A stretch of DNA of 64,000 bases from a virus. The notes under the pieces were generated by a model. That model ran no database searches and was not told the DNA's origin. It saw only the letters and a program-made list of their open reading frames with translations. The stretch lies in the IMG/VR virus record IMGVR_UViG_3300009159_000048, positions 30,242 through 94,241 of that record, one strand, 5' to 3'. How positions within the stretch are numbered: the first letter of the stretch is position 1; each line of letters starts with the position of its first letter. Position numbers and translations under genes: made by a program. Below are positions 2,862 to 41,160 of the stretch, one piece after another.

Positions 2862-3959
2862 TTAATTTGATAATGGGAATTTAACCGTTTTAGAAGAGTT
2901 ATATCCCACAACTTTTATATCATCATACCTTAATTCATCAATAGAAGAATTTGATAATTCTAACTTTGGGAGCTTAAATGTCTCATTATTTAATTGTTCC
3001 TCAACTCCACTTACTTGATTCGAGTAGATATGACAATCACCTCCAGAAAAAATTAGTTGGTTTGGAATCATATTGACTTCTCTACATAGTAAGTGTAATA
3101 ACAAACCATAAGATGCAATATTATAAGGAATACCCAAAGGAACATCACAAGATCTCTGAGTCCATTTAAGACTTAACTTTCTTTTTGGAACATTAAGTTC
3201 ATCTAATCTATCACTACTCAAATCTTCAGCGTAGCTTATATGTTTATCTAACGAATCACACAAAAGTTTTTTTCTTTCTTCTAAATCAATTTCGGTTGTA
3301 TAACACTGAAAACCGTAATGACAAGGTGGAAGAACCATTTGGTCTAATTCACCTACATTCCAAGCTGAAACCATTAATCGTCTACTATCAGGATTTGTTT
3401 TAAGATCGTTGATTAGGTTTGCGATTTGGTCTATACTCGATTCATATACTCCAGGTTCAACAATCTTTTCAACTCGTGTAGTTTTTCTAACCCAACTTCT
3501 CCATTGCTTACCATACACTGGACCTAAATCACCCCACTTCTTAGCAAACTCCGTATCTGTTTTGATTTTGTTGATAAATTCTTCTTGTGTATATGCTCTA
3601 TTAGAAGAACCATTCATTCCATTAATAACAACATCTTCTTTTACATTATCTTTATTAGAAAACCTATCTCTAGTCTTTAAATAATTGGAGAAGCAGTCAC
3701 CATCCCAGATATGAACACCATTATCAACAAGATATTTAATGTTTGTATCTCCACGTAAAAACCAAATAAGTTCATGGAAAATTCCCTTAATAAACATTTT
3801 CTTCGATGTTAAAAGAGGAAATCCTTCAGACATATCAAATTTCATAGTATAATCAAAAACAGAAATAGTTCCTGTTCCTGTTCTATCTTTTTTTAACACA
3901 CCATTATCTAAAATGTATTTTAAGAATTTTAGATATTGTTTATCTACATTATTTTTCAT
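2862..3959 (-). CDS. thyA: Thymidylate synthase
   Basis: DRTGTGT, FPLLTSKK, ELIWFLRGDTN, GPVYGKQWR, catalytic LPPCH, QRSCDVPLGIPYNIASY, GDCHIY. Confidence 0.97.
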   Translation of the reverse strand: MKNNVDKQYLKFLKYILDNGVLKKDRTGTGTISVFDYTMKFDMSEGFPLLTSKKMFIKGIFHELIWFLRGDTNIKYLVDNGVHIWDGDCFSNYLKTRDRFSNKDNVKEDVVINGMNGSSNRAYTQEEFINKIKTDTEFAKKWGDLGPVYGKQWRSWVRKTTRVEKIVEPGVYESSIDQIANLINDLKTNPDSRRLMVSAWNVGELDQMVLPPCHYGFQCYTTEIDLEERKKLLCDSLDKHISYAEDLSSDRLDELNVPKRKLSLKWTQRSCDVPLGIPYNIASYGLLLHLLCREVNMIPNQLIFSGGDCHIYSNQVSGVEEQLNNETFKLPKLELSNSSIDELRYDDIKVVGYNSSKTVKFPLSN

Positions 3960-4407
3960 CCAATAATAAATTTATTTTTTTATCTCTTATTTTTTCTTTA
4001 AGCAATTCAGACACAGATGAAATTTGCAAAGGTTCTATGTCTAATTCTTTTGGCTTATTTAGAATTACAAACTCAGTAAATGTGAATAGTTTCTTCACCG
4101 GAATTTTAATAAGCTCTAAAATGCAATCTTTTGTTAAAAAGTCTATGTCATCCACTACTAAATAATCAAATCTTCCATCTTTAACCAATTCATCAATTAC
4201 CTGAATAGTCTTTTTATTATTATATTCTGTTGAATAAAGACTTTTAGTTGTATCAAATATTTTACCCATATAATCTACACTATCAGAACAACTAACAAAA
4301 CAAATTTTTGATCCAATAGAATTAAGATACTTAGCAAACTCGTAAATAAATATACTTTTACCTGAGTTTCTTTCTCCTTGAATCAATATCAAATCTTCAT
4401 CAAACAT
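3949..4407 (-). CDS. Small degenerate P-loop (RecA/KaiC-like) protein with C-terminal IRDKKINLLL tag
   Basis: Walker A-like GERNSGKS, Walker B-like YLVVDD; only 152 aa. Confidence 0.65.
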   Translation of the reverse strand: MFDEDLILIQGERNSGKSIFIYEFAKYLNSIGSKICFVSCSDSVDYMGKIFDTTKSLYSTEYNNKKTIQVIDELVKDGRFDYLVVDDIDFLTKDCILELIKIPVKKLFTFTEFVILNKPKELDIEPLQISSVSELLKEKIRDKKINLLLDEK

Positions 4408-5224
4408 TAAGACTTATATTAGACTTTGATAAATTAGTTTTATATGGACAACTATCTATCCATTTTTCTTGAAACCAAAATGTTCTACCAGTTGAATCTT
4501 TACAGGAAACTCCCTTTTGATAATAAACCCATTTTATAAATTCATCATAGTCGGTATCAAAAGGATTTTTCCAATCAGATAATTGACCACCGTTTAGATT
4601 ATAAGCCATAATCGGAATATCTCTACACATAGATAATATCTTATCATTATTTTCTATAACATCTCTAGCTTTTAAGAATGGATCGATATCTAAATAATAA
4701 AGTATTGTACTTCTTAAGTAATTACCTATACCATTAAAATACTTTTGATTTAACAGAACTTCACAAATTGGACCATCAAAATCTTTTCTGTGTAAATTAG
4801 ATTTGACATTCTCATAGAAATCTGAAAATTCCTTTGTAGGGTCTGGTCCTCTTTTAACACCAGTAAATTCACCAATTCTATATTTAGGACCCATATATGA
4901 TCCATAAAGAAGTAGTGAATAACCATCAGTTGAGTCTAATCTCATTCTAACAAATTTAGTATCACTCCAACTTTCGGTAGGCACCCACTTCCAGTTACCA
5001 GACATACCCATAAAAACTGAAATTTTATGAATTTCAGAATCATTATAAAATCTTAATTTTAGTTCTTTACCAAATGATTCAGCATCGATGTTAAAATTTT
5101 CTAATAAAGTGAATTGCTCAGGATTATTTCCTTTTAGAACGTGGTATGATTTGTTAAATGTTTTTCTTTTAGTATTATGATTGATATAATCAGCCATAAT
5201 TTTTAATTCTGGTCCTTCCGGCAT
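4400..5224 (-). CDS. Fpg/Nei-family DNA glycosylase, NEIL1-like
   Basis: N-terminal MPEGPE, GKEL, GMSG, H2TH LLNQKYFNGIGNYLR, C-terminal GRTFWFQ with no four-Cys zinc finger. Confidence 0.9.
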   Translation of the reverse strand: MPEGPELKIMADYINHNTKRKTFNKSYHVLKGNNPEQFTLLENFNIDAESFGKELKLRFYNDSEIHKISVFMGMSGNWKWVPTESWSDTKFVRMRLDSTDGYSLLLYGSYMGPKYRIGEFTGVKRGPDPTKEFSDFYENVKSNLHRKDFDGPICEVLLNQKYFNGIGNYLRSTILYYLDIDPFLKARDVIENNDKILSMCRDIPIMAYNLNGGQLSDWKNPFDTDYDEFIKWVYYQKGVSCKDSTGRTFWFQEKWIDSCPYKTNLSKSNISLNV

Positions 5225-5273
5225 ATCATTATTTTAATAATCATGATATGAATTAAATAATAAATTGTTTAGA

Positions 5274-5699
5274 TTATTTTAGACCTTTAAGACAAGCTAC
5301 TACATTTGATATAATGTAAGCAATAACAGCTACTTTCAACACAGTCATATTATCGACTCCAAAACCGAAATAACCTACTAATCCACCAATGAAGGTCACT
5401 ATACTTGCGATTCTTAGGTACTTACTTACTTTATCTACAACCGTATACCAATTTTTAGAAAACCATTCACCAAATCCCTCATCAACTCCTAAAAGTAACG
5501 ATTTAACCAACTCAGGATCTTGTAGATCATCAAAAGTAACACCATGGTCTTTTGCAAATTTCTCTAAATCTTGTTTTATTTTGTTTTTATCAACACCATC
5601 TAATAAGTTAAAATACTCAGATGTTTTATTTTCGATATTAGAAAGATCAGTAGTTGGAATTTCTTGATTATATGATTCAAATTTTGATAAATATTTCAT
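5274..5699 (-). CDS. Hypothetical protein with MKYLSKFESY leader and two C-terminal TM helices
   Basis: 141-aa ORF; architecture parallels 1712..2275. Confidence 0.8.
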   Translation of the reverse strand: MKYLSKFESYNQEIPTTDLSNIENKTSEYFNLLDGVDKNKIKQDLEKFAKDHGVTFDDLQDPELVKSLLLGVDEGFGEWFSKNWYTVVDKVSKYLRIASIVTFIGGLVGYFGFGVDNMTVLKVAVIAYIISNVVACLKGLK

Positions 5700-5714
5700 A
5701 AAAACAAATTTAAG

Positions 5715-5732
5715 TTTTAATATATATTAAAA
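5715..5732. promoter_or_regulatory. Palindromic bidirectional TAATATATA element (putative late promoter)
   Basis: Perfect palindrome TTTTAATATATATTAAAA between divergent genes 5699(-) and 5748(+). Confidence 0.65.
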
Positions 5733-5747
5733 TTTTAATTAAAAAAT

Positions 5748-6839
5748 ATGAAAAGACTAAATAGTTATCAAAAGTTTTTTGAACAAAAACAATTAGAATC
5801 AATTCTGGAAGAATTTGGTAGTATTTTAGAATCCGATGAAGCGGCTGCCGCGACCCCAAAAGAGTCTCAGTCAGAAAAAGAGATTTTAGAAGAAATGCCA
5901 GAAGACCAAAAAACTAAAATAGAAGATATTTTAGCTAAACACTTTCCGGAAAGCAAAGGAAAACTAGATGTTGATGATTTAACAAAAGGTGAAGGTGAGA
6001 AAAAAGAAGGTGAGAAAAAAGAAGGTGAAGAATCTGAGAAAACAAATGAAGGAGCTATTCTATTAGCTATCACAATAGCATCACTAATACCAGTGTGTAT
6101 GGAAGCAGTTGGAGGTTTATCTAATCTTCTAAAACAAAAGTTCTCAATAAATCTAGATGATAAACAAATAGCTAATCTAAAAAGAATGAATGATGCAATA
6201 GCAACATACAATAAAATATTATCAAAAGGTACTGGTAAGTTTTCAGGTAAAGAATATGATATGAAAACATTTTCAGAAATTTCTAACATATTATCTAAAG
6301 AATTAACGAATCCAGAATTAGCATTTGGTAAAGGATATGAAGATGACCATGGACATGGGTCAAAAACAAATGAAGAGGCTGAAGTAGCTACTGAAGAAAC
6401 AAAACCTGAAGGAGATGATACAGAGTCATCAGTCAATAAACTAAAAAGTGTTGAATCTCAAATTAAAAAAGAAATAGCTAAATTAAAAAAATTCAGAGAC
6501 AAAATCTTTGGAAGTAACTTTGGAAACTGGATGAAAGAAAAAGGACATGCTTTACATCACGCATACACAGCTCCAATAAGAGCCGTACTTTGGACTATAT
6601 CTAAAGCAACTAAAAGTTCAAGTAAATTGAGAGATGAAAAGTTTAGAGAAAAAGCGGCTAATGTTATCTATGCAATCACAATGGTTGGTTTAGCTGGATA
6701 TGGAATATGGGCGACACTTGGACATATGGCTGGTGTTGGTGAAGTAGCACAAATTGTACTAAAAGGATTAGAAAGTGGTGTAAACACAAAAGAACTAATA
6801 AAAACTGCACTTACAGCTCTTATGGGAGGAACAGCTTAA
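5748..6839 (+). CDS. Hypothetical protein with MKRLNSYQKFFE leader, acidic linkers and hydrophobic helices
   Basis: 363-aa ORF with EGEKK repeats and TNEG/TNEE sites. Confidence 0.8.
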   Translation: MKRLNSYQKFFEQKQLESILEEFGSILESDEAAAATPKESQSEKEILEEMPEDQKTKIEDILAKHFPESKGKLDVDDLTKGEGEKKEGEKKEGEESEKTNEGAILLAITIASLIPVCMEAVGGLSNLLKQKFSINLDDKQIANLKRMNDAIATYNKILSKGTGKFSGKEYDMKTFSEISNILSKELTNPELAFGKGYEDDHGHGSKTNEEAEVATEETKPEGDDTESSVNKLKSVESQIKKEIAKLKKFRDKIFGSNFGNWMKEKGHALHHAYTAPIRAVLWTISKATKSSSKLRDEKFREKAANVIYAITMVGLAGYGIWATLGHMAGVGEVAQIVLKGLESGVNTKELIKTALTALMGGTA

Positions 6840-6855
6840 TCTTTACAAAATATCT

Positions 6856-6893
6856 AATAAAAAAGTCTTATCATATGATAAGACTTTTTTATT
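6856..6893. terminator. Bidirectional terminator (perfect 38-bp palindrome)
   Basis: AATAAAAAAGTCTTATCAT|ATGATAAGACTTTTTTATT between convergent genes. Confidence 0.8.
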
Positions 6894-7243: not shown

Positions 7244-7246
7244 ATT

Positions 7247-7720: not shown

Positions 7721-7757
7721 ATACAAATATAAGAAAAAAAATTTAATATATAAAATA

Positions 7758-8192: not shown

Positions 8193-8194
8193 TT

Positions 8195-9439: not shown

Positions 9440-9455
9440 GTTATATAGATTTAAG

Positions 9456-9487
9456 CAAATATAGTGATTAAATTACAAATTTCCAAA
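9456..9487 (-). promoter_or_regulatory. Bacteroidota housekeeping sigma promoter
   Basis: Minus strand TTTG-N20-TATATTTG upstream of the peptidase ATG at 9439. Confidence 0.7.
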
Positions 9488-10006
9488 TAAATGCTCAATT
9501 TTTTTATCTCTGATATAAGACTTTTTAAGAGAATCAATAGTTGCGGTTGATCCATTTATTCTATCAGTGAGCCAAATATCACTTTTATGTAACTCTTTAT
9601 ACTCAGTTTGTAATAAGAAGTCATTGACATCATCGGTTGACTTATATTGAAATTCTTTACTAACTATTATAAAATTTTGAGGTAGGTCTTTTATAACTTC
9701 TAAATAAAAACCCCAATTCATTTTTCTTTTACTCCAAAAATCAAATACAATTAAATCAACACGAAATAAATTAGATTTATCAAGAATACTTTCCTTGAAA
9801 TCATCAATATTATCAAATTCTATTTTATTATTTAAATAATGATATAAACAAAGATCGTGTATTTTATTTGATTCGGATGGCTTTGGTGGAGTAAAAAGTA
9901 TATAATTATAACCAGCTAGGTCTAAAAAGTTCACAATGCTACTAACACCAGAAGCAACTGATGAAACGTCACCGGTGAAATAGTTATATTTTTTCAGATC
10001 TATCAT
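9473..10006 (-). CDS. Degenerate P-loop/helicase-like protein with C-terminal IRDKKIEHLF tag
   Basis: Eroded Walker A position (YFTGDVSSVAS) and Walker B-like DLIVFD. Confidence 0.5.
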   Translation of the reverse strand: MIDLKKYNYFTGDVSSVASGVSSIVNFLDLAGYNYILFTPPKPSESNKIHDLCLYHYLNNKIEFDNIDDFKESILDKSNLFRVDLIVFDFWSKRKMNWGFYLEVIKDLPQNFIIVSKEFQYKSTDDVNDFLLQTEYKELHKSDIWLTDRINGSTATIDSLKKSYIRDKKIEHLFGNL

Positions 10007-10388
10007 GTATGTTCTTTTTCTTTACATCAACGATGTAGTTATATTTATATAAAAATCTTCTTCCAATTAAACAAGGAAATTTCATACCTTTTCTATTTGT
10101 CAAAGATATAAAAACTTTATGAGATTTTTCACCTAGTGTTAATTTTGTTTTAATCAAAAATCTTTTCTGAACTCTACCAAAAGAACTTTTAACTTTAACC
10201 TCTTTAAAGTTATCAAAACATATTTTTTCACCCCCCTCAAACCAAAAGAATAGTTTATCTTCATCCACTTGAAATCCATCAACATGTAGTGCAATATTGA
10301 ATGCACCAGTATCTACTTTAGCGTCTAAAGAACTTATTCCAAGTTCAGGTAATGAAATTTTTTCAAATCTTCCTACTTTTTTACTCAT
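9984..10388 (-). CDS. RimK-associated putative protease (retropepsin-like, AKVDTGA)
   Basis: VGRFEKISLPELG, AKVDTGA, VKSSFG, LTNRKGMKFPCLIGRRFL. Start moved to ATG 10388, downstream of TAATATATA at 10408-10416. Confidence 0.8.
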   Translation of the reverse strand: MSKKVGRFEKISLPELGISSLDAKVDTGAFNIALHVDGFQVDEDKLFFWFEGGEKICFDNFKEVKVKSSFGRVQKRFLIKTKLTLGEKSHKVFISLTNRKGMKFPCLIGRRFLYKYNYIVDVKKKNIHDRSEKI

Positions 10389-10442
10389 TAGAGATGATTT
10401 TTTATGATATATATTACATAAGTAATAATAAAGTTTAATTTT

Positions 10443-13100
10443 ATGTCTAGACATCTCGAATTACAAAAAAAATATAATGAGTTAAACGCTCAGAATAAAA
10501 AGGAAGGAAGGGAAAAATTTTCTAAAGATCTTGGAAAGCCAAAAGTTAAAATTACCAAAGGAACAACACCAACATCAACAAAAGTAATTAGAAACAAAAA
10601 GTTAGATGTGGTTATAGTCTCTGTAAACTACAACGATTATTTATCAGTCACTTTATCACATAATAGTAAAATATTTGATAATATAACAGTTGTTACCTCA
10701 TCAGAAGACATACTTTGTCAAAAAATGTGTGAAAAATTTGGTGTAAATTATGTAGTTACTGATATTATGTATGATGGTAATGCAAAATTCAATAAGGGGA
10801 AAGCCATAAATGAAGGAGTAAGAAGTATTGAAAATCCTGATTTTATACTTTTAATAGATGCTGATATTATTGTTAGTGACAAAATAGATTTAGACTCAAT
10901 TGATAAAGATTATCTTTACACCTCAAATAGACATATTTGTAAGTCTTATAATCTACTACAAAGTTATATTAATGGTGAGAAAAAAATTGAAGATGTATTT
11001 AAGTGTGAAATTGATAAAGGAATGGGATTTTTTCAACTTTTTAATATAAATCACAATTCAATTGATAAAGATAAAGTATATCCAGAATTCTCCAATGACG
11101 CATCATGGGATGATTTATTATTCAGAGATAAATTTCCAAAAAGAGTAACTCTCGGTAATACAATAATTCACTTAGGAGATCCATATCAGAATTGGACAGG
11201 AAGAGTAACTAGCAGATTTTTATCAGATGAGGAACTTTTTAAGATTATCAACTCATATGTAGATAAAAAAGAATTAAGTCAAAATGATTGGGGTACATTT
11301 GATAAAAACATAAATACTTCAAGATATGGAAAATTCAATATAGTAAACACAATATCATTTGATTATCACTACTCAGGATGGTCATACTGCTTAGAACAAA
11401 TATCAATATTAAACTCAAAAGATGGAATAGATTTTGACCCATATCTAGAAAAAAACTTTTGTTGGTATGGATCAGAAAAAAAAATATATCAAAATCCTTG
11501 GGTTGGTATACTACACACACCGATAAACACAGATAAAGAATATATCAAAAAGGTGAATAATGTAGAAATTTTTAATATTCCAGAATTCATTGAAAGTCTA
11601 AAATACTGCGTGGGTCTTTATACATTTAGTGACTATGAAAAATCAAAAATTGAAGATAAAATTAAAAAATTAGAAATTAATTTAGATATAAATGTTATTA
11701 GACACACAACAAGAGAAAGTAATAATAAATGGAGTATTAATCTTTACAAAAAAGATAAAAAAATACTACATGTTGGTTGGTGGTTAAGAAATATTGACAG
11801 TTTCTATAATCTTAAGGTAGATTTAAAAAAGATAAGATTAAAGTTAAAAAATCCAATAGAAAAAACAATAAGTAGAATATTTAATATGCAAGGAAATTGT
11901 CAGGAACTTTCATATCTAAATAAAGATGAATATGAAAGTATATTGAACTCATCAGTTTTATTTTTAGATTTAATAGACTCTGTTGCTGTTAATACTTTAA
12001 TTGAATGTATCGAAAATAACGTACCTATTATAGTAAATAAAACAAAATCAGTAGAGGAATATCTAGGAAAAGATTATCCACTATATTATCAAAATTTAGA
12101 TGAGGTAAACGATCTACTAAATGATGATAAGATTTTAGAAGCATCTGAATACTTGTCAAAAATACCAAGATTTGATAGTCTAGGAAAACAAATTCAAATG
12201 TCAAATATTTATAAAAAGATAGATGGCTTACAAACTTACAATATTTTTAACCCTGGAGATTTAGGATTAGATTCATTAGGTGGAATTTATAATCCAGGCT
12301 ATATAAAATTTAATAATAAAGAGTATATTTTACCAAGAGTTGAAAAATTTACCGAAAACGAGAGAGGTCAAAACAATCTCTGGAGAAAAACCAGTTCTGT
12401 ACCATACTTAATAGAAATTGATAATGAATTTAATATTAAGGAAATAAACAAACTAAAACTAATTGGATTCAGTGAAAAAAGAATAGAAGATTTTAGAATA
12501 TTTGAATATAAAAACGAATTATACACAAATCATATATTAGTTGATGATGATAGTATTTATCCAGTAATATCGAAAATAGATATAAAAAATAATAAATTAC
12601 ATTTTATAGGAAAAATAAAAATACCAATTGACATAAAAAATGTAGAAAAAAATTGGACCTTTATTTCTATGAATGATGAACTTTTTTTAATCTACAATAT
12701 AAGTACTATGACAATATTCAAGGTCAATTTAGATAATTTAACTTCCGAATTATACAAAAATATTGATAGTAATATTGAGTGGTCAATAAGAGGATATGTA
12801 TCAGCAAGTACAAATCCTATAAAAATAAATAAAGATTCATATATAATGGGGTTTCACACTAGAGATAAAAATCTTATTTATCATCAAGGATTTTTGGAAT
12901 TTGACTCAAACTTCAATATAATAAATTACTCAAAAAAACCTGTTATATCATCAGGTGATTATCAAACTATAAATCCAAAAGTAATTTACACAATGTCATT
13001 AAAATTAAATAAAAAAGACGAGGAAATTGAATGTTTTTGTGGAGATGGTGATAGTAAAACAACAGTGATATCATATAAAATAAAAGAATTATTTAGATGA
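10443..13100 (+). CDS. Multidomain glycosyltransferase (GT2-like + GT-B-like + beta-propeller hydrolase-like)
   Basis: FNKGKAIN, LLIDADI (DxD); middle NTLIECIENNVPIIVN; C-terminal YNPG, RIEDFRIF, EKNWTF propeller motifs. Confidence 0.7.
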   Translation: MSRHLELQKKYNELNAQNKKEGREKFSKDLGKPKVKITKGTTPTSTKVIRNKKLDVVIVSVNYNDYLSVTLSHNSKIFDNITVVTSSEDILCQKMCEKFGVNYVVTDIMYDGNAKFNKGKAINEGVRSIENPDFILLIDADIIVSDKIDLDSIDKDYLYTSNRHICKSYNLLQSYINGEKKIEDVFKCEIDKGMGFFQLFNINHNSIDKDKVYPEFSNDASWDDLLFRDKFPKRVTLGNTIIHLGDPYQNWTGRVTSRFLSDEELFKIINSYVDKKELSQNDWGTFDKNINTSRYGKFNIVNTISFDYHYSGWSYCLEQISILNSKDGIDFDPYLEKNFCWYGSEKKIYQNPWVGILHTPINTDKEYIKKVNNVEIFNIPEFIESLKYCVGLYTFSDYEKSKIEDKIKKLEINLDINVIRHTTRESNNKWSINLYKKDKKILHVGWWLRNIDSFYNLKVDLKKIRLKLKNPIEKTISRIFNMQGNCQELSYLNKDEYESILNSSVLFLDLIDSVAVNTLIECIENNVPIIVNKTKSVEEYLGKDYPLYYQNLDEVNDLLNDDKILEASEYLSKIPRFDSLGKQIQMSNIYKKIDGLQTYNIFNPGDLGLDSLGGIYNPGYIKFNNKEYILPRVEKFTENERGQNNLWRKTSSVPYLIEIDNEFNIKEINKLKLIGFSEKRIEDFRIFEYKNELYTNHILVDDDSIYPVISKIDIKNNKLHFIGKIKIPIDIKNVEKNWTFISMNDELFLIYNISTMTIFKVNLDNLTSELYKNIDSNIEWSIRGYVSASTNPIKINKDSYIMGFHTRDKNLIYHQGFLEFDSNFNIINYSKKPVISSGDYQTINPKVIYTMSLKLNKKDEEIECFCGDGDSKTTVISYKIKELFR

Positions 13101-14131: not shown

Positions 14132-15351
14132 CAGTACACCAAATAAAATCTGAGATAAACTATAGTTTTTTAATGTCTCCATTTTATTTGATAGGAGACG
14201 ATGAGTTATTGAAATCTCAACTACTAAATTTAAATAATCAAACTGATAAATCATTTGAGGTTATAATTCCAGATCCACATTATTCTAAAAGAGAATGGAT
14301 AAAAGATTTTTGTAAGAATCTTGATTATAATCTAATACACTATAAATACGAAACAAACTTTAAAATACCAAGAACATTCGATTATGGAATATTTAACAAT
14401 TCTTCTTTGATAAGCAATTCCGAAAATCTCATAATTTTTCAAGACTGGAGATTTTGTCATCATGAACTAGTAGAAAGACTTAAAAAAACTAATTATGAAT
14501 TTGTAGGATTTAACTGGCAGATTCTTTATACAGAGGAAATTCCACTCAACTCTTGCGATCCTCTTGGGAACTCTCAAGAATCGACGGTCACACATCACCC
14601 AAAATCAACAATAGAAATATCAATAGTAGAATCTAAGATACTTTATGAGAATGGTATATTTCCAATTATAAATATAGAAGAAAGTCTAGTAAACACATTT
14701 CATAATAGTTGTTGGGGTCATTATTGCATCTCAAAAAAACTTTGGATGGAAATAAACGGGATAGATGAAGTAGTAACAGGCACAAGACATTATGCAGATT
14801 TAGATATTAACGCAAGATTACAGGAATATTTTAGAAGAAATAATAAAATTATTGAAATTCCAATGTTGAAAAATGCAATGGTTAGATTAGCGCACATTAG
14901 AGGAAACTTCTTTGGTGGTTCAAATGTAGAATTGGATTACAAAGTAAATATTGAACACACAAAGTGTTGTTTTGTCGCAACACCAAATATAAGTATCGAC
15001 GAATTTACACATAATAAAAAATTTACACACTACGTTGTCGATAAAATTAAAAATGGAGAATATTCTAAATTATATGAAATAGAATATTCAGAATATTTTA
15101 GAAATAATAATAAGAATGAAAGTTTGGATGATGAGTATTGTATCATAGGATTTCAATGTAATAAATGTAAAGTAGTAGGTGAGACACCACACTGGTATGA
15201 TAAATCACCAAATTGTAGAGTAGAAGCTATGTTTGATATTGGTACTGAAAACTTTAAAATTGGAAAAAATATTAAATCTATAAATAATAATCTATTAGGC
15301 GAAACAATTCAGAAAAAAATAGAATTAGTCACTAATTACTGGAATGAATAA
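14128..15351 (+). CDS. GT2-like glycosyltransferase
   Basis: LNNQTDKSFEVIIPD, LIIFQD, EINGIDE, ADLDINARL. Confidence 0.65.
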   Translation: MTVHQIKSEINYSFLMSPFYLIGDDELLKSQLLNLNNQTDKSFEVIIPDPHYSKREWIKDFCKNLDYNLIHYKYETNFKIPRTFDYGIFNNSSLISNSENLIIFQDWRFCHHELVERLKKTNYEFVGFNWQILYTEEIPLNSCDPLGNSQESTVTHHPKSTIEISIVESKILYENGIFPIINIEESLVNTFHNSCWGHYCISKKLWMEINGIDEVVTGTRHYADLDINARLQEYFRRNNKIIEIPMLKNAMVRLAHIRGNFFGGSNVELDYKVNIEHTKCCFVATPNISIDEFTHNKKFTHYVVDKIKNGEYSKLYEIEYSEYFRNNNKNESLDDEYCIIGFQCNKCKVVGETPHWYDKSPNCRVEAMFDIGTENFKIGKNIKSINNNLLGETIQKKIELVTNYWNE

Positions 15352-19372: not shown

Positions 19373-20134
19373 ATGACACCATTAAATTCTTTTACATACA
19401 TAATCGGGTACAGACACTCAACAGAAAGACTAAATAATCTAAAAAGAGTTTTAGATTGGATTAACGGATTTCAAGGAGTTGATGTTATTGTCATTGAACA
19501 AGATACACACAGTAAGATTTCTCATCTAAGTCTAAAATGTAGACATATATTTCTTAAATCAAATTTACCATATAACAAATCTTGGGCATTCAATGTAGCA
19601 ACTAAAATGTCAAGATCCAATATAATCGTGTTTGCAGACTCGGACTTAATTATGGATCCAAATAATTTTATTGAAGGTCTTAGATTACTAGAAAAATTTG
19701 AAATGGTAAATCCATATCAATCTGTAATAGATTTAGACCCACAAGAATCAGGTTCTCAACTTGAACAAATGACAAAGATCGAAAGATCTGGTAGAGGAGA
19801 AACAGACCATCAAAAAGTTCCAATCTGTGGAGGCATTTGTATGTTTAGAAGAGAAGCAATTATGAAAGTTGGTGGATGGAATGAAGACTTCATTGGTTGG
19901 GGAGCAGAAGATGATTTTGTATCTCATAAAGTAAAACAATTCTTAAATTGGCATCAATTGCCACATAAGTGCTATCATCTTTACCACACTAGAAATCAAC
20001 CAGATATGACTGCATATCAAAGAAACTTACAATTACTAAATCAGTTAATTGCGCTTCCAAAAGAAGAACTTGTTAAAACAATTAACAAGTCTATTCCAAA
20101 ACAAGCTATGTTAAATAAGTATGATAATTTCTAA
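19373..20134 (+). CDS. GT2/GT7-like galactosyltransferase
   Basis: YNKSWAFN, FADSD, GGWNEDFIGWGAEDD, YHLYH. Confidence 0.85.
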   Translation: MTPLNSFTYIIGYRHSTERLNNLKRVLDWINGFQGVDVIVIEQDTHSKISHLSLKCRHIFLKSNLPYNKSWAFNVATKMSRSNIIVFADSDLIMDPNNFIEGLRLLEKFEMVNPYQSVIDLDPQESGSQLEQMTKIERSGRGETDHQKVPICGGICMFRREAIMKVGGWNEDFIGWGAEDDFVSHKVKQFLNWHQLPHKCYHLYHTRNQPDMTAYQRNLQLLNQLIALPKEELVKTINKSIPKQAMLNKYDNF

Positions 20135-20897
20135 GAATCATTTACAATCAATTTGTAACTACACCGAAGTCAGTTCTATTAAAAATCCTCAATTTTCTTA
20201 CATTGAAATGGAAGAGAGTAATTCTGATGATTATAAAAGAAGAATACAATCTATAAATAGAGGACTTGCGATTGATGCTCTCCTAGACAATAAAGAAGAA
20301 GAGTATAAAAATAGAGAAAATTATTTAGAAGAAGATTTTGATTCAGAGAGTTATGTAAGTACTGTAACCCCAAAGATTAAAACTATAAGTCTAAACAATC
20401 CTATTAAGTATAATTCATTAGATAGTATTTTTGATTACACTCTAAATCAATTAGAATCACTAACATCAAATTCGATGACTGGTAAAAATATAGATTTAAC
20501 ACTATCAATAGATCCTTCTTTATCAGATTATGATAATTTTCAAGCAAACACTAGGAGAGTTTTGACTAGAATTATGTTAGTTAATAATATGATTACTCAG
20601 ACATCCAGAATAGGACCTGCTTCATCTATAATATTAGGAGAAGATGTATTTAAAATTATTTCTCAATCATCTAATTTCTCATATCAAGTATCAGGAACCG
20701 GACCGATAAACGGAACAATTGCTGGACTATCTGTTATTTTTTCAGAAAAATTAACAAAAAATAAAGTGATTTTAATTAGAACTAATTCCAACTCTGATAA
20801 TGGACTAAATGTAATTAATGATACACAAAATGGTGAGTTTTATATAAAAGAAACACCTAACTGGCAGAAAATGATACACTGGTTTAGTGTTATTTAA
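20121..20897 (+). CDS. Degenerate major-capsid-protein (gp23-like) derivative
   Basis: RRVLTRIMLVNNMITQTSRIGPASSII...GTIAGLSV...KVILIR resembles the gp23 A-domain segment; carries an NRGLAIDALL tag. Confidence 0.55.
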   Translation: MIISKNHLQSICNYTEVSSIKNPQFSYIEMEESNSDDYKRRIQSINRGLAIDALLDNKEEEYKNRENYLEEDFDSESYVSTVTPKIKTISLNNPIKYNSLDSIFDYTLNQLESLTSNSMTGKNIDLTLSIDPSLSDYDNFQANTRRVLTRIMLVNNMITQTSRIGPASSIILGEDVFKIISQSSNFSYQVSGTGPINGTIAGLSVIFSEKLTKNKVILIRTNSNSDNGLNVINDTQNGEFYIKETPNWQKMIHWFSVI

Positions 20898-22749: not shown

Positions 22750-22950
22750 TTAATTATTAAAAATTTTGTTGATGGAATTTTTTCGATTTTGTCTTCTTAA
22801 TTCCTTAGCAAAATATCCCTCAAAAGAACTAATGTCAATATCACTAAATACCTCTAAATCTTTAGCCATCTCTCGAGTCCAAGAAGCCTTCAATGTTCTT
22901 GTTTGAGATTTAACTTCAACAGAAGTCATGCTAATATCAATCGATTTCAT
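22750..22950 (-). CDS. 66-aa gp23 major capsid fragment-like protein with C-terminal tag
   Basis: VEVKSQTRTLKASWTREMAKDL matches the gp23 signature (T4 gp23 as recalled: IEAKSRQLKAAYSIELAQDL); ends NRKNSINKIFNN. Confidence 0.7.
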   Translation of the reverse strand: MKSIDISMTSVEVKSQTRTLKASWTREMAKDLEVFSDIDISSFEGYFAKELRRQNRKNSINKIFNN

Positions 22951-24293: not shown

Positions 24294-24332
24294 AAATTGA
24301 TTTCTGTTTTTATCAAGTTTATATATTAAAAG

Positions 24333-31090: not shown

Positions 31091-31095
31091 TTGTT

Positions 31096-36879: not shown

Positions 36880-36947
36880 TTATAAACTTAGGTTTTGATT
36901 ATATATTAATTTTAGATTTCTTGATAGACAAAATTAATATATAACTT

Positions 36948-37307: not shown

Positions 37308-37311
37308 AACT

Positions 37312-37770
37312 ATGAAAATAAAAAGATTTGAATCAAAAGAAGAAAAAGTAAAAAACCAAGAGGTTTTATTTACTGCTAAATCCTTAGAAAAAAATAAGGA
37401 AGAAAAACCATCATTCAAAACTGAAGTTGAGGATAATGAAAAAGTTCAGAAAGAATTCAAGAAGTCAATGGATAAAATTGAAAAGTTTGAAAATTTTATA
37501 ATTGAGATAGGAGTTAAACAAACTGATGATTCTGAAGAACAGAAACTTTTAGGTGGTCCTGAATCTTCACACACTGTACATGATAATAACATGAGAAATA
37601 TGGAGAGTGAGAAAGAAGTTGGTTGTGGATGTTGTGACCAATGTAATGGACAAGAAGACTGTGAATGTTGTAACGACTGTACTTGTGGTTCTGATTTAGA
37701 AGAGTCTAATCCAGAAACAGATGTTAAAGTTATGAATATTGCTGACTTTATAGAGTTATTAAATAAATAA
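37312..37770 (+). CDS. Acidic protein with MKIKRFES leader and Cys-rich cluster
   Basis: ATG 37312 follows the upstream stop; contains CGCCDQCNGQEDCECCNDCTC. Confidence 0.7.
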   Translation: MKIKRFESKEEKVKNQEVLFTAKSLEKNKEEKPSFKTEVEDNEKVQKEFKKSMDKIEKFENFIIEIGVKQTDDSEEQKLLGGPESSHTVHDNNMRNMESEKEVGCGCCDQCNGQEDCECCNDCTCGSDLEESNPETDVKVMNIADFIELLNK

Positions 37771-37778
37771 TCAATAAT

Positions 37779-38363
37779 ATGAAAATTATTAAATTCACAG
37801 AATCTATTAATATATCAGAGTCTCTAAAATACCATTTAGATAATAATAAACCTATTACTGAAAATATATTCAGACCAGGTTCAGAAGCTTTCTATGAAGT
37901 AATCAAAGAAGCTAGAGAACTATTTGACTTAGGTAGAGTTAATCTATGTGATGTTGATAAAGAACTTTACGAATCAACTGATATTGGTAAGTTTGGAATG
38001 TTCAACGGTGAACTAGTTCCTTTAGATTTACCAATGGAAAATATAGAAGAGATAAGAGAGGAAGCCGAATATAAAGGTAAAGAAGTTAAATTAAATTATC
38101 CTACAAGAAGCTCAGGTCCTAAGAAATATAAAGTATATGTAAAGAATCCTAAAACTGGTAGGGTTAAAGTTGTAAATTTTGGTGATGTGAAAGGTGGATT
38201 GACAGCTAAAGTTAATAATCCAGGGGCTAGAAAAAGTTTCGTAGCAAGGCATAATTGTAAAAGAAAATGGAAACCTGAAGACAAATTATCTGCTGGATTT
38301 TGGTCATGTAGACTTCCCAAATTTAAGCACTTAGTTTCAACAACTTACAATGGTTATTGGTAA
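37779..38363 (+). CDS. Phage hypothetical protein with MKIIKFTES leader and basic C-terminal domain
   Basis: KKYKVYVKNPKTG...VNFGD...ARKSFVARHNC...GFWSC. Confidence 0.75.
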   Translation: MKIIKFTESINISESLKYHLDNNKPITENIFRPGSEAFYEVIKEARELFDLGRVNLCDVDKELYESTDIGKFGMFNGELVPLDLPMENIEEIREEAEYKGKEVKLNYPTRSSGPKKYKVYVKNPKTGRVKVVNFGDVKGGLTAKVNNPGARKSFVARHNCKRKWKPEDKLSAGFWSCRLPKFKHLVSTTYNGYW

Positions 38364-38409
38364 TCCAATAACACTTTATAGGGACTGCATATTATTTAAT
38401 ATATAGAAT

Positions 38410-39837
38410 ATGAAAAATATTTTATATCAAATTGTAATAGAGGAACATAAGCATCTACTCAAAAAAACGGGTGTTTATAAGATACTAAATAAAGAAAACA
38501 ATAAGGTTTATATTGGTTCCACATCTCAAAGGTTTTCAAATAGACTCTCTAATCATATTAGAGAGTTAATTGAAGACAGACACCATTCAAAGTATTTACA
38601 AAATTCATATAATAAAAGAAAAGATATTAATAAATTTGAAATATCGATTTTAGATGTATGTGAACCAGAAGAATGTTTATTATTTGAGCAAAAGTGGCTA
38701 GACATTTATAAGTCATATATAAAAGAATTTGGATATAATATTTGCCCAATTGCTGGATCATGTTTAGGTATAAAAAAATCTAAAGAGGAAAAAATAAAAA
38801 TATTCGAAAGAAGTAGATGTCTATCAGATAACCAAATAATTGAAATATTCAAACTTAGGAATGACCTAAAACTCTCATATAGATTAATTTCAGAAGGAAT
38901 GAATATCACAAAAAATCAAGTTGCGTCAATTTTAACAAAACCTATTAAATATAAATATGTTAAAGAGAAATATAAATTAGAGTTAAAAGTAAGATTTGAA
39001 AAAGAGTTCACAAAATATGATATAATTAAAATTCACAATCTATATGAAATAGAGAAATTTTCTATTCGAGATATATCAGAGATAATGAAGTTAAGTCTTA
39101 TAAAATTAAAACATCTAATTTACAATGAAAAATTATATTTAATAGAAAAAGAAAATTTGAAATTTAATGTAGATAAAAATAGAAAAAATAAAATCTATAA
39201 GAGAAAAAAAAGACCATTTGGTATTAAAGTGAATAAGACCATTATATCGGAGCTGGAGATTAGTGAAGTTTTTAATCTTAAATATAATTCAAATCTTAAA
39301 AATGATGAAATATTAGAAAAGACAGGCATCACATTAAAGGATATTAAATTGATTCTATCTTATATATATCAAAGAAGAAAATACAATCAACTCTATATTT
39401 CTCTTAAAACACAATTTAATCTAAGAGAAAAAAGAACAGTTCTTAGTGAAGTGGATATAGTTGGGATATTTAATGACTATAATAGTGGAAAATATCTCAT
39501 AGAAGAATTAAATGAAAAATACAATTTTAATGATGTTGGTGTGATTATACAAAAATCGGATAGAATATCTAATTACTATAAGGATATAATTAATAAAAAT
39601 AACCTTAGAGTAGATAAATCATCAACAAAAAACAAAGAAATTAAATCCAAATCCATGTCTGAAATGAATAAAAAAAGAGCTAAGACTTATGAGATAGTAA
39701 ATCCAGAAGGAATTAAAACTAAAATAACAAATTTAGCAGAGTTTAGCAGAGATAATGGCCTGGATGCCGCGAATCTATCAAGAGTTTCAAAAAATGGGAA
39801 ATCATACAAAGGGTGGAAGTGTATTTGCTTAGATTAA
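38410..39837 (+). mobile_element. Free-standing GIY-YIG homing endonuclease
   Basis: GVYKILNKENNKVYIGST, R..H, HHSKYLQNSY, EQKWLD, GYNI; repeated HTH-like units and a C-terminal NLAEFSRDNGL...YKGW module. Confidence 0.88.
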
Positions 39838-39847
39838 TATATAGTAT

Positions 39848-40654
39848 ATGAAACACTTAAAAACATATCAAATATTTGAATCTGAATTTTTTACAATCAG
39901 TGACGAGAGAAGAAAAAAACTAATTGATTATATAAATAGTAGTTTAGATGGCGCGGATATGGATTTTTCTTCTTGGATATATCAAAATATAATTCGGGGA
40001 AAAGAAGAACATACAGAACTTAATGATTTTATTCAAAAATTATCTCCTAATTGGAAAAAAATACTTGATGAATACTTAGCTAAGTATAAAAGTGGAGTAA
40101 TGAAAATTGGACAAGATGACCAAAATGAGTGGTTTGGTGTAAATTATAACTCAAGTCTTAAACAAAAAGAAGTAATAGGTGATCAGGAGATAACAAAAAA
40201 CTTTTATGTAACATTTGAGAAAAGCGAAGACAACCTGAAAAGATGGTTCAATGGACTCGGAACTCTTATAAGTGACTTTTACAAAGCTTGCACAGAAGGT
40301 GAATTAAAAAACTCGGCAATTTCTTTCAAATGTGGATATGATGGTAAACATTTTATAGAAGACAATGACCATCTAAAGTTTTATTGGTATAAAGATGATG
40401 ATAAAAATAAAGTATTAGAAGTATATAATAATTGGTTGAAGAAAACTGGTATACAAACTAAGAAAAGAGCTTATGATTTTGGAATAGACACTGCAAAAGG
40501 TAGAGATAAAAATAGCTTTGGTCTAATGGTTGCAACTAAGGTGAATAACCAGTTTCAAAAACTTAAATCACAGTATGGAAAAAAGTTTACATCTGAACAA
40601 TATGCAGATTATATAATAGATATGTTAAACAAAACAAAGTTTAAAATTGATTAA
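39848..40654 (+). CDS. Protein with MKHLKTYQIFES leader; globular domain of unknown function
   Basis: 268-aa ORF; TAATATATA at 39835-39843. Confidence 0.78.
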   Translation: MKHLKTYQIFESEFFTISDERRKKLIDYINSSLDGADMDFSSWIYQNIIRGKEEHTELNDFIQKLSPNWKKILDEYLAKYKSGVMKIGQDDQNEWFGVNYNSSLKQKEVIGDQEITKNFYVTFEKSEDNLKRWFNGLGTLISDFYKACTEGELKNSAISFKCGYDGKHFIEDNDHLKFYWYKDDDKNKVLEVYNNWLKKTGIQTKKRAYDFGIDTAKGRDKNSFGLMVATKVNNQFQKLKSQYGKKFTSEQYADYIIDMLNKTKFKID

Positions 40655-40925
40655 TATGACACTTCCATTTCAAGAAACTAAATTAGGTGATAATACATTT
40701 ATCAGAGAGTTCGTTCAAGATACTGATTCTGGAGAGTTTACTTGGCATCGTGACCGTGAATCTCGTACAATTGAATCTATCGGTGAAACAGACTGGTTAA
40801 TTCAAATTGATAATGAACTTCCGAAAAAGATTGAAGGAGAAGTATTTATACCAATGGGTGTTTATCATAGACTAATAAAAGGAACTAGAAATCTTAAAAT
40901 TAAACTTCAGAAGATCCAAAATTGA
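40647..40925 (+). CDS. Small cupin-like protein
   Basis: WHRDRE ... FIPMGVYHRLIKG; likely start ATG 40656. Confidence 0.7.
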   Translation: MINMTLPFQETKLGDNTFIREFVQDTDSGEFTWHRDRESRTIESIGETDWLIQIDNELPKKIEGEVFIPMGVYHRLIKGTRNLKIKLQKIQN

Positions 40926-41160
40926 TATTTCCGTAAAAGTTATTATTTATAATCTTTTTAGAATATCTACTTGTAATTGATTTACTTGGAGAAAATTCAT
41001 CTTTAATATCTAATCCTAAATCAAATATCTTATTGATCTTTCTTTTTCTACTTACGTTCTTAGAAGTATATCCAGATATAACAGAAGTAGTAGTCATTGG
41101 AATATAAGGAGCATAAATATAACCACTTTCTAAACTACCTTTCTTACCTATAGCTGACAT
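40900..41160 (-). CDS. 86-aa gp23 major capsid C-terminal fragment-like protein with inserted tag
   Basis: GKKGSLESGYIYAPYIPM ... FSPSKSITSRYSKK...FYG matches the gp23 C-terminal G-x-K-G...G-x-x-YAPY...F-x-P...[TS]RY pattern; SRKRKINKIF inserted. Confidence 0.7.
   Translation of the reverse strand: MSAIGKKGSLESGYIYAPYIPMTTTSVISGYTSKNVSRKRKINKIFDLGLDIKDEFSPSKSITSRYSKKIINNNFYGNINFGSSEV

What the first reader, a model, noticed from the sequence alone, without database searches (positions are those of the whole stretch)
3949..41160. A portable R-x-x-[KSA]-I-x-x-[LI]-[LF] tag shared by five unrelated degenerate proteins
Seen in sequence: IRDKKINLLL (end of 3949..4407), IRDKKIEHLF (end of 9473..10006), NRKNSINKIF (end of 22750..22950), SRKRKINKIF (41023-41052), and the weaker NRGLAIDALL (in 20121..20897). 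Every carrier is a shrunken or catalytically eroded copy of a core phage protein: two P-loop/helicase-like and three capsid-like. Inference: a bait-plus-tag design, in which a mimic domain binds a target and the basic amphipathic helix docks onto one common partner such as a protease/unfoldase, scaffold or compartment. ATPases and capsids are typical triggers of bacterial pattern-recognition defences.
Basis: partly seen in the sequence, partly recalled or inferred. Interest (0 to 1): 0.85.

Follow-up and report, generated by a model that had tools for sequence, protein, structure and literature searches.

The report
Portable helix tag on huge-phage proteins
This uncultured huge phage and its closest relatives attach one short peptide (Arg-x-x-Lys-Ile/Leu-x-x-Ile/Leu-Leu/Phe), mostly at the very C-terminus, to up to one in eight of their otherwise unrelated, mostly small proteins, including mini-proteins made from pieces of the capsid protein. 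It behaves like a shared address or docking label whose reader is still unknown.

Summary
All five peptides are present at the stated places. The pattern occurs 7 times in the 94-kb contig (0.4 expected) and 55, 45 and 31 times in three complete relatives of about 635-640 kb (about 3 expected). It occurs once in a 735-kb relative. A looser form marks about 131 of 969 proteins in the closest relative, nearly all within 10 residues of the C-terminus. The constraint is on the peptide, not the DNA. The tagged proteins are unrelated outside the tag. Orthologues keep the tag while the rest of the protein diverges, and the tag has lineage dialects. Three window carriers are genuine pieces of a gp23-type capsid protein. 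One carrier is a RecA/KaiC-like fold without a P-loop, and one is a mini ATPase with intact Walker motifs. Most carriers in relatives are orphans, so "every carrier is a mimic of a core protein" does not generalise. Tagged genes mostly lack the late-promoter motif and never overlap the N-terminal T4-CTS-like leader class. That argues against capsid loading. Phage ClpS and a PrkA-YeaH-SpoVR operon share the tag's phyletic pattern. A clamp reader is not supported by co-variation. This scan already noted the same tag on other DNA of this clade.

The parts
3949..4407 (-). 152-aa mini P-loop ATPase (AAA/KaiC/RecA-like; Walker A GERNSGKS and Walker B VVDDID intact). It ends in the tag IRDKKINLLL + DEK (tag nt 3961-3987).
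   Evidence: ORF and peptide. Pfam AAA_14 E 1.8e-6, with weaker AAA_22, KaiC and RecA hits. Orthologue in LR756502.1 (32% identity) ends ..TRELKINNVLK.
9473..10006 (-). 177-aa RecA/KaiC-like fold lacking a Walker A motif. It ends in the tag IRDKKIEHLF + GNL (tag nt 9485-9511), and the tag lies in the terminal helix (residues 156-173).
   Evidence: ORF. No Pfam or PHROG hit. 150 homologues. In 24 diverse orthologues R165 and K168 are invariant and Y163, I164 and D166 nearly so. AF2 pLDDT 88.8, pTM 0.85. Foldseek best matches KaiC, RadA, Rad51, RecA and Twinkle, TM about 0.5, E about 2e-4.
20121..20897 (+). 258-aa paralogue of the C-terminal half of the gp23-type capsid protein. It carries a tag variant NRGLAIDALL near the N-terminus (residues 47-55; nt 20259-20285), followed by an acidic stretch.
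   Evidence: Pfam Gp23 E 7e-4 (model 212-277). PHROG 138 major head protein E 0.004. BLASTP against the relative's capsid protein residues 408-505, E 3e-5. Orthologues keep NRQNAINSIL and NRNLALDVIL.
22750..22950 (-). 66-aa mini-protein: a capsid-protein segment (Pfam Gp23 model positions 132-172) plus the tag NRKNSINKIF + NN (tag nt 22759-22785). Its start overlaps the stop of the upstream 447-aa gene.
   Evidence: Pfam Gp23 E 5.2e-6, 26.6 bits, above the 24.4 cut-off. PHROG 138 E 2.6e-5. 17 stand-alone homologues of 59-67 aa, nearly all with PF07068 precomputed. Tag nearly invariant. BLASTP against the relative's capsid protein found nothing.
40900..41160 (-). 86-aa mini-protein derived from the last ~45 residues of the capsid protein. 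The tag SRKRKINKIF (nt 41023-41049) sits in a ~27-residue insertion in the middle of the protein.
   Evidence: Pfam Gp23 E 0.0018 (model 310-334). BLASTP against capsid protein residues 493-523, E 0.007. 368 homologue clusters. The alignment shows that the LR745206.1 orthologue lacks the insertion and carries IRKRKIENIF at its C-terminus instead.

Best explanation
The motif is a portable short docking helix, an 'address label'. Its consensus is [IL]-R-[DEKN]-x-K-[IL]-[DNEK]-x-[IL]-[LFG], and it is usually 0-7 residues from the C-terminus. One subclade of Bacteroidota-infecting huge phages ('Mahaphage' relatives) has spread it over roughly an eighth of its proteome. The invariant Arg and Lys, together with the Ile/Leu face of one helix, are read by a single common partner. 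That partner most likely co-evolves with the tag and is phage-encoded, because each genome has its own dialect: RDxK[IL]xx[IL][L/GI] in this contig, LR745206.1 and LR756502.1, and RKx[KR]IExLL-COOH in LR756504.1. The label marks a class of mostly small, fast-evolving, mostly non-late proteins. This class is distinct from the late, N-terminally labelled (T4-CTS-like) class. In this window the label sits on three capsid-protein fragments and two RecA-like mini-proteins. These would therefore be brought to the same partner as about 100 orphan proteins. Shown: the enrichment, the C-terminal bias, peptide-level selection, unrelated bodies, retention in orthologues, positional portability, the dialects, and the expression-class contrast. 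Inferred: that a single reader exists. My leaning for its identity (about 25-30%) is the phage's own AAA+ proteolysis or remodelling machinery: ClpC-like unfoldase with ClpP and ClpS, or the PrkA-YeaH-SpoVR module. Under that reading the tag acts as a C-terminal degron or tether for timed removal or hand-over.
For: Enrichment: 7 against 0.4 in the contig. 55 against 2.9 in LR745206.1, with the reversed motif at 3. A DNA-pattern scan gave 53, 31 and 14 against 0-3 for the controls. C-terminal bias: 41 of 55 strict hits lie within 7 residues of the end. The looser pattern marks 131/969, 134/993 and 55/951 proteins, but 1/1040 in LR756501.1, a genome of like composition. Peptide-level selection. 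Unrelated bodies: 131 carriers fall into 130 phmmer clusters once the tag is removed. Retention: 35 of 57 W01-W02 orthologue pairs with a tag in at least one member match the regex in both; by eye most of the other 22 still show a tag-like variant, so about 52 of 57 keep it; median body identity of the 35 pairs is 40%, against 55% for untagged pairs. The tag residues are the invariant ones in the 9473 and 22750 families. Portability: the same tag is internal in the window's 86-aa protein and C-terminal in its orthologue. It is also inserted inside UvsW-like and XPD-like helicases. Dialects. Expression class: the TAATATATA motif seen upstream of the capsid, scaffold, portal-like and terminase genes heads 10-23% of the transcription units that hold tag genes. 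It heads 75-85% for leader genes and 36-45% for other genes (Fisher P 4e-6 and 6e-15). The tag and leader classes overlap in 1 and 0 proteins, where about 10 and 13 are expected (P 1e-4 and 4e-7). Reader leads: ClpS and PrkA occur in exactly the three tag-positive genomes and in none of four tag-negative ones. The tag-positive genomes hold the full set of ClpC-like (VGF loop, UVR motif), ClpP and ClpS.
Against: No binding or turnover was tested, and no multimer modelling was available. The phyletic match of ClpS and PrkA rests on one clade, so in effect on one evolutionary event. At least 55 other genes are shared by the tag-positive genomes and absent from LR756501.1. ClpP also occurs in the tag-negative Lak-C1 and LR756500.1, and the ClpC-like protein also occurs in LR756501.1 and Lak-C1. 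Conserved internal and N-terminal copies (the helicases, ORF 20121-20897) do not suit a simple C-terminal degron. In the AF2 model of ORF 9473-10006 the tag is part of a confident long helix (pLDDT 87-92), so it may pack on the domain rather than hang free. In this window, carriers 9473 and 22750 lie downstream of late-type motifs, so the 'non-late' rule is statistical and not absolute. Gene calls are crude.
Confidence: 0.6

Rival explanations
1. Sliding-clamp (PIP-box-like) binding motif. The tag would dock client proteins on the phage clamp, as the interchangeable C-terminal tails of T4 gp43, gp33 and gp55 do.
For: The hydrophobic spacing i, i+3, i+4 with upstream basic residues and an extreme C-terminal position fits PIP-box and RB69/T4 tails. 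That comparison is recalled knowledge, supported by the review PMC2988020. That review also says the T4 tails are interchangeable and still work when placed internally. Carriers include two helicases, a nucleotidyltransferase-like protein and RecA-like mini-proteins. The relatives encode a gp44-like clamp loader. In LR745206.1 and LR756502.1 a tagged 53-59-aa ORF overlaps the end of the gp55-like late sigma gene.
Against: The polymerase C-termini (..VVMDIFGGFK in LR745206.1..KLTFTLSLF in LR756504.1) and the gp55-like C-termini (..DGQGIHSL..EGDGMYNI) do not carry the tag and do not follow its dialects. The tagged ORF after gp55 is absent in LR756504.1 and LR756501.1. About 130 mostly orphan small proteins is far beyond any known set of clamp clients. 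The tag is absent from LR756501.1 and Lak-C1, although LR756501.1 has homologues of the clamp loader and polymerase. No clamp gene was found by Pfam.
Confidence: 0.12
2. Capsid or scaffold targeting signal. The tag would dock cargo on the capsid protein or the protease-scaffold fusion, so that tagged proteins are packed in the head, like encapsulin cargo-loading peptides or scaffold C-terminal helices.
For: Five capsid-derived fragments and one fragment of the scaffold repeat carry the tag. Small size would suit ejection. Basic C-terminal helices of scaffolding proteins bind HK97-fold coat proteins (recalled knowledge).
Against: Tag genes are depleted of the late-promoter motif that heads the capsid, scaffold, portal-like and terminase genes. 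A separate class of 76-97 late proteins carries an N-terminal leader like the T4 capsid-targeting sequence and is mutually exclusive with the tag. The scaffold repeats also exist in tag-free LR756501.1. The scaffold's own C-terminus lacks the tag.
Confidence: 0.1
3. Bait-plus-tag decoys. Tagged mimics of capsid and ATPase proteins would bind host pattern-recognition defences and deliver them to a protease or sequester them.
For: The capsid-derived mini-genes are real, conserved as stand-alone genes in many contigs and always tagged. They tile consecutive capsid segments: Pfam model positions about 102-172, 164-194, 210-323 and 302-356. The phage encodes Clp components.
Against: Only a small minority of carriers resemble core proteins. 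No defence gene or sensor is implicated by any result. The mini-genes are restricted to the contig/LR745206.1/LR756502.1 subclade, while the tag is wider.
Confidence: 0.1
4. Common descent. The carriers would be one hugely diverged family of small proteins whose only surviving conserved element is a C-terminal helix, rather than a tag that moves between proteins.
For: Many carriers are small and lie in tandem arrays: 38 adjacent tagged pairs against 18 expected. LR756504.1 has clear paralogue runs. In Ralstonia phage RsoM2USA a different C-terminal motif sits mostly on paralogue families.
Against: The tag sits on proteins of demonstrably different folds and origins: gp23 fragments, a RecA-like fold, SF2 helicases and a PolyA_pol-like protein. 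It also changes position within one orthologous family. There are 130 clusters among 131 carriers.
Confidence: 0.06
5. Chance, composition, or a DNA-level element (promoter, terminator or selfish insert) that happens to be translated.
For: The proteome is rich in K, I and N. The three C-terminal window instances lie just upstream of the next gene's start.
Against: Shuffles, the reversed motif and a like-composition genome give 0-3 hits against 31-55. Third codon positions and flanks carry no information. Codon choice mirrors genome usage.
Confidence: 0.02

Closest known systems
[quoted passage not shown]
   Same: A short, interchangeable peptide at the extreme C-terminus of unrelated proteins, joined by a variable linker, which docks them on one partner. 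The hydrophobic residues sit at i, i+3 and i+4.
   Different: T4 has three or four clients, whereas here there are about 130 per genome. The T4 tails are hydrophobic and acidic, whereas this tag has an invariant Arg and Lys. The phage's own polymerase and gp55-like C-termini do not carry the tag or follow its dialects.
Capsid targeting sequence (CTS) of T4 internal proteins IPI-III and Alt (recalled knowledge)
   Same: A roughly 10-residue portable address label shared by unrelated phage proteins.
   Different: The CTS is N-terminal, is cleaved by the prohead protease and sits on late proteins. These genomes have a separate CTS-like N-terminal leader class that excludes the tag class and has the opposite promoter association.
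C-terminal degrons and tethering peptides of AAA+ proteases: the ssrA tag, the MuA RRKKAI tail, the SspB XB tail (recalled knowledge)
   Same: Short C-terminal peptides with basic and hydrophobic residues, placed on many unrelated substrates and read by one unfoldase or adaptor. The tag-positive phages encode ClpC-like, ClpP and ClpS proteins.
   Different: There is no sequence match to any known degron. The tag is helical and sometimes internal. No degradation was tested. ClpS is known to read N-terminal residues.
Encapsulin cargo-loading peptides and the C-terminal coat-binding helices of scaffolding proteins (recalled knowledge)
   Same: A C-terminal peptide that docks diverse cargo on an HK97-fold shell protein. 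Here, capsid and scaffold fragments are among the carriers.
   Different: Carriers are mostly not in late transcription units, and there is no sequence similarity to those peptides.

Membership tests
T4-type clamp-binding tail / PIP-box | The replicative polymerase of the same phage ends in the same motif | tested here: not met
   The PolB C-terminal halves end ..RRLSVVMDIFGGFK..VVMDIFGGSGF..KLTFTLSLF and ..DYVDEDDLLD. The first is RB69-like. None matches the tag consensus or its dialect in that genome.
T4-type clamp-binding tail / PIP-box | The late sigma (gp55) and co-activator end in the motif | tested here: inconclusive
   The gp55-like proteins end ..G[IMF][HY][SN][LIF], which is not the tag. 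A separate tagged 53-59-aa ORF overlaps the gene's end in two genomes only.
T4-type clamp-binding tail / PIP-box | Physical binding to the clamp's hydrophobic pocket | not testable with these tools
   No clamp gene was identified (Pfam gp45, DNA_PPF and DnaN searches were empty), and no multimer modelling was available.
T4 capsid targeting sequence | N-terminal position followed by a prohead-protease site, on late proteins | tested here: not met
   The tag is C-terminal or internal. Tag genes are depleted of the late motif. A distinct N-terminal leader class fills that role.
C-terminal degron of an AAA+ protease | Located at or near the free C-terminus of unrelated substrates | tested here: met
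   41 of 55 strict hits lie within 7 residues of the end. In LR756504.1 most end exactly in LL-COOH.
C-terminal degron of an AAA+ protease | Cognate unfoldase or protease present wherever the tag is present | tested here: inconclusive
   ClpS and PrkA occur only in the three tag-positive genomes. This is one clade. ClpP and the ClpC-like protein also occur in tag-negative genomes.
C-terminal degron of an AAA+ protease | The tag confers degradation on a reporter | not testable with these tools
   This needs an experiment.
Gp23 major capsid protein family (PF07068), for the three mini-proteins | Significant profile match to the family | tested here: met
   The 66-aa protein scores 26.6 bits, above the 24.4 cut-off. 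The 258-aa and 86-aa proteins fall below the cut-off (E 7e-4 and 2e-3) but give BLASTP E 3e-5 and 0.007 against a relative's capsid protein.
Gp23 major capsid protein family (PF07068), for the three mini-proteins | Full-length HK97-type fold able to form a shell | tested here: not met
   Each covers only part of the model (positions 132-172, 212-277 and 310-334). The full-length 560-571-aa capsid protein is a separate gene in relatives.
RecA/KaiC-like P-loop NTPases, for ORF 9473-10006 | RecA-like core fold | tested here: met
   AF2 pLDDT 88.8. Foldseek matches KaiC, RadA, Rad51, RecA and Twinkle with TM about 0.5 and probability 1.0.
RecA/KaiC-like P-loop NTPases, for ORF 9473-10006 | Walker A GxxxxGK[ST] | tested here: not met
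   The loop after strand 1 reads TGDVSSVASGVS. No GK[ST] is conserved in 24 orthologues.

The most novel reading that the evidence does not exclude
These huge phages run a proteome-sorting system of their own, built on two mutually exclusive address labels. An N-terminal CTS-like leader marks late virion-bound proteins. This C-terminal helix marks about 13% of the proteome, mainly fast-evolving non-late accessory proteins. A dedicated, co-evolving phage-encoded reader handles the second class, for example the ClpS/ClpC-ClpP set or the PrkA-YeaH-SpoVR module. It removes, remodels or relocates the whole class on cue.
Probability: 0.2. Interest if true: 0.85.

Novelty: new variant of a known kind. 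Interest (0 to 1): 0.65.

Why it matters
Portable docking tails are known in phages for a handful of proteins, such as the T4 clamp clients, the T7 acidic tails and the T4 CTS. Here one peptide marks roughly an eighth of a 600-kb phage proteome. It changes dialect between sister genomes and is complementary to a second, N-terminal label. If a single reader exists, finding it would assign a shared fate to more than 100 orphan proteins per genome at once. That would open a way into the otherwise uninterpretable 'dark' gene content of huge phages. It would also provide a compact natural tag-reader pair. The tagged capsid-protein fragments are an unusual gene class in their own right. I found no description of this motif in the paper library.

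Tried and rejected
1. DNA-level element or selfish insert: rejected. There is no nucleotide information outside codon positions 1-2 and none in the flanks.

2. Split capsid gene: rejected. The three fragments lie on different strands and far apart. Relatives have an intact capsid gene as well as the mini-genes.

3. gp55 carrying the tag through a +1 frameshift: considered because a tagged ORF overlaps the end of gp55 in two genomes. Rejected because the 121-124-aa gp55 form with its own conserved ending is present in all four relatives, and the extra ORF is missing in two of them.

4. Clamp search with Pfam gp45-slide_C, DNA_PPF and DNA_pol3_beta: empty.

5. PDZ or tail-specific protease as a reader of hydrophobic C-termini: no S41 and no credible PDZ.

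6. ClpP as a phyletic marker: fails, because it is present in tag-free Lak-C1 and LR756500.1.

7. Test of a PrkA link in an unrelated PrkA-positive jumbo phage (RsoM2USA). That phage has an abundant C-terminal motif of its own, which is absent from its PrkA-negative relative XacN1. The motif sits mostly on paralogue families, so this is only weak support.

8. Half of a SAP/Rho_N-like helix, the ParB N-terminal peptide, and the MinD/FtsA membrane-targeting helix: all considered from memory. The spacing or the acidic residues do not fit, and none was tested further.

9. Profile search of the 9473 family against PDB sequences: nothing.

10. Literature search for the motif strings: nothing relevant.

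Full report
**What the window is.** The 64-kb window is part of a 94-kb contig with 29% G+C. Its nearest database relatives are the metagenomic huge phages LR745206.1 (635 kb), LR756502.1 (642 kb), LR756504.1 (636 kb) and LR756501.1 (735 kb). The source paper places these genomes in the 'Mahaphage' clade and predicts that they infect Bacteroidetes (PMC7162821). The genome is T4-like in several ways. It has a gp23-type capsid protein, a T4-type terminase, a gp47-like nuclease, a UvsW-like helicase, a gp44-like clamp loader, a gp55-like late sigma and a split family-B polymerase.

**Check of the observation.** Shuffling gives 0.35 and the analytic expectation is 0.40. Two of the seven lie outside the window and so are independent of the pattern's definition. 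One is in a 152-aa ORF and one is inside a DinG/XPD-like helicase. The underlying DNA uses different synonymous codons.

**The pattern in relatives.**
- I fetched four complete relatives and repeated the count. LR745206.1 has 55 hits against 2.9 +/- 1.8 in shuffles, and the reversed motif has 3. Of the 55, 41 end within 7 residues of the C-terminus.
- LR756502.1 has 45 hits, LR756504.1 has 31 and LR756501.1 has 1.
- A back-translated DNA pattern gave 53, 31, 14, 0 and 2 hits for these four genomes and Lak-C1. The reversed controls gave 0-3.
A looser C-terminal pattern marks 131/969, 134/993 and 55/951 proteins in the three tag-positive genomes. It marks 1/1040 in LR756501.1, which serves as a composition-matched negative control.

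**The constraint is on the peptide.** Codon choice at the fixed residues mirrors genome usage. Per-nucleotide information is confined to codon positions 1-2 of the fixed residues and is absent from third positions and from 30-60 nt of flank.

**The tag is portable.**
- With the tag removed, 131 carriers of LR745206.1 form 130 phmmer clusters.
- Carriers with recognisable folds are unrelated to one another. They include gp23 fragments, a RecA/KaiC-like fold, a mini AAA ATPase, UvsW-like and XPD-like helicases (tag inserted internally) and a PolyA_pol-like protein.
- Among reciprocal best hits between LR745206.1 and LR756502.1, 57 pairs carry the tag in at least one member. The regex finds it in both members of 35 pairs, and by eye most of the other 22 still show a tag-like variant, so about 52 keep it. 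The bodies of the 35 pairs are only 40% identical at the median, against 55% for untagged pairs.
- In the 9473 family (24 orthologues down to 45% identity), the tag's R and K are invariant columns of the alignment and Y, I and D nearly so. The 66-aa family behaves likewise.
- In the 86-aa family the window lineage carries the tag inside a ~27-residue insertion. The LR745206.1 orthologue has an uninterrupted body and carries the tag at its C-terminus.

**What the window carriers are.**
- Three are pieces of the capsid protein. The 66-aa protein matches Pfam Gp23 above the gathering cut-off, at model positions 132-172. Nearly all its stand-alone homologues carry that annotation.
- The 258-aa protein aligns to residues 408-505 of a relative's 560-aa capsid protein (E 3e-5).
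- The 86-aa protein aligns to residues 493-523 (E 0.007).
- Relatives hold the intact capsid gene plus these mini-genes, plus two further tagged mini-genes. One (67-70 aa) covers model positions 164-194, and a 243-aa protein covers the C-terminal half. There is also an 83-aa tagged fragment of the 14-residue repeats of the protease-scaffold fusion that sits beside the capsid gene.
- ORF 9473-10006 gives a confident model (pLDDT 88.8) with a RecA/KaiC-like core. It has no Walker A motif, and the tag lies in its terminal helix.
- ORF 3949-4407 is a mini ATPase with intact Walker motifs.
The generalisation is not. In LR745206.1 only about 8 of 55 strict carriers resemble any larger protein of the same genome.

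**Which partner?**

*Capsid loading.* I regard this as unlikely.
- A motif TAATATATA lies just upstream of the capsid, scaffold, portal-like, terminase and large structural genes.
- It heads the transcription units of 75-85% of the proteins that bear an N-terminal MK-x-h-[KR]-x-[FY]-[EN] leader resembling the T4 capsid-targeting sequence. It heads only 10-23% of units holding tagged genes and 36-45% for the rest.
- The two labelled classes overlap in 1 and 0 proteins, where about 10 and 13 are expected.
- In this window, however, two carriers (9473 and 22750) do lie downstream of such motifs.

*Sliding clamp.* This is attractive on geometry and by analogy with T4, where the gp43, gp33 and gp55 tails are interchangeable (PMC2988020). 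The phage's own polymerase and gp55-like C-termini differ from the tag and do not change with its dialects. The number of carriers is also implausibly high for clamp clients.

*AAA+ machinery.*
- The tag-positive genomes encode a ClpC-like unfoldase with a VGF loop and no N-domain, ClpP (two copies in LR745206.1), and ClpS. They also encode a complete PrkA-YeaH(DUF444)-SpoVR operon.
- ClpS and PrkA occur in exactly the three tag-positive genomes and in none of four tag-negative ones.
- ClpP and the ClpC-like protein are more widely spread.
- The three tag-positive genomes form one clade, and at least 55 genes share the pattern as far as it was tested. This is therefore a lead, not evidence of binding.
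- An unrelated PrkA-positive jumbo phage, RsoM2USA, has its own abundant C-terminal motif that its PrkA-negative relative XacN1 lacks. That motif sits mainly on paralogue families.
- No PDZ domain or S41 protease was found.

**Verdict.** The motif is a genuine, selected, portable peptide label with lineage dialects. The presence of dialects points to a co-evolving reader, most likely phage-encoded. I put 0.6 on the single-reader address-label model. Within it, about 25-30% goes to AAA+ proteolysis or remodelling, about 12% to the clamp and about 10% to capsid or scaffold. The remainder goes to an unknown reader.

**Relation to earlier notes of this scan.** Several earlier notes describe the same tag in other genomes of this clade, also without a reader. 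My counts were made independently. Unlike one of those notes, I find that the capsid-fragment carriers are real in this genome.

Noticed in passing
window 1712-2275(-), 5274-5699(-); contig upstream of the window; relatives genome-wide: A second label: an N-terminal leader MK-x-h-[KR]-x-[FY]-[EN] resembling the T4 capsid-targeting sequence. It occurs on 6 contig proteins and on 76 and 97 proteins of LR745206.1 and LR756502.1. It is mutually exclusive with the C-terminal tag, and 75-85% of these genes lie in units headed by the late-type motif.
   Followed up: partly
window 2301-2308(-), 5719-5728, 24320-24327(-), 36900-36943, 59372-59381 and others: The motif (T/A)AATATATA lies just upstream of structural genes: capsid, scaffold, portal-like and terminase in relatives, and large structural genes and the terminase in the window. 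It is probably the late promoter read by the gp55-like sigma. The window has 26 copies against 16 expected.
   Followed up: partly
LR756501.1 (735 kb), loci L089-L125: This tag-free relative has a quite different, very abundant motif, DPYGEExW, on about 94 proteins. It occurs at the C-terminus (40 proteins), directly after an MIKKFKIFE-type leader, or between domains. I found no description of it in the paper library.
   Followed up: partly
LR745206.1 480112-484920 (L039); also LR756502.1 and LR756504.1: A complete PrkA - YeaH (DUF444, vWA-like) - SpoVR operon is encoded by the phage. PrkA is 84% and 65% identical between these genomes. The operon is absent from four tag-negative phages and present in Ralstonia phage RsoM2USA.
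   Followed up: partly
LR745206.1 423224-425329, 75119-75859, 123556-124221, 180414-180695: The phage encodes a ClpC-like unfoldase (no N-domain; UVR motif; VGF loop), two ClpP proteins and a ClpS. ClpS did not ring in the Bacteroides thetaiotaomicron control genome.
   Followed up: partly
window 3-1199(-); LR745206.1 232803-234344 and 130568-131992: The family-B DNA polymerase is split into two genes about 100 kb apart. The window's first ORF is the N-terminal (exonuclease) half. The C-terminal half ends in an RB69-like tail, VVMDIFGGFK.
   Followed up: partly
LR745206.1 189151-189649 (L024 9151-9649); LR756502.1 (L047 1501-2005): The gp55-like late sigma gene (121 aa) is overlapped at its end by a +1-frame ORF of 53-59 aa that ends in the tag and is followed by a terminator hairpin. 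This is seen in these two genomes only.
   Followed up: partly
contig 15173-15199(-), about 15 kb before the window's start: A 33-codon stop-to-stop frame reads ..NRRKKSIEKIFRKSGN, which is little more than the tag itself. I did not check whether it is expressed or conserved.
   Followed up: no
window 9984-10454(-): A retropepsin-like 'putative ATP-dependent zinc protease' domain protein (PF05618, E 2e-17) overlaps the start of the tagged RecA-like gene 9473-10006. A late-type motif lies inside its annotated 5' end, which suggests a later true start.
   Followed up: no
Ralstonia phage RsoM2USA (MG752970.1), 57-213 kb, loci L160-L177: About 59 proteins end in [VI]F[DE]LQDW[LI]IxNG[FY]E. They fall mostly into tandem paralogue families of about 200 aa (16 clusters). 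The motif is absent from XacN1 and from all the Mahaphage genomes tested.
   Followed up: partly
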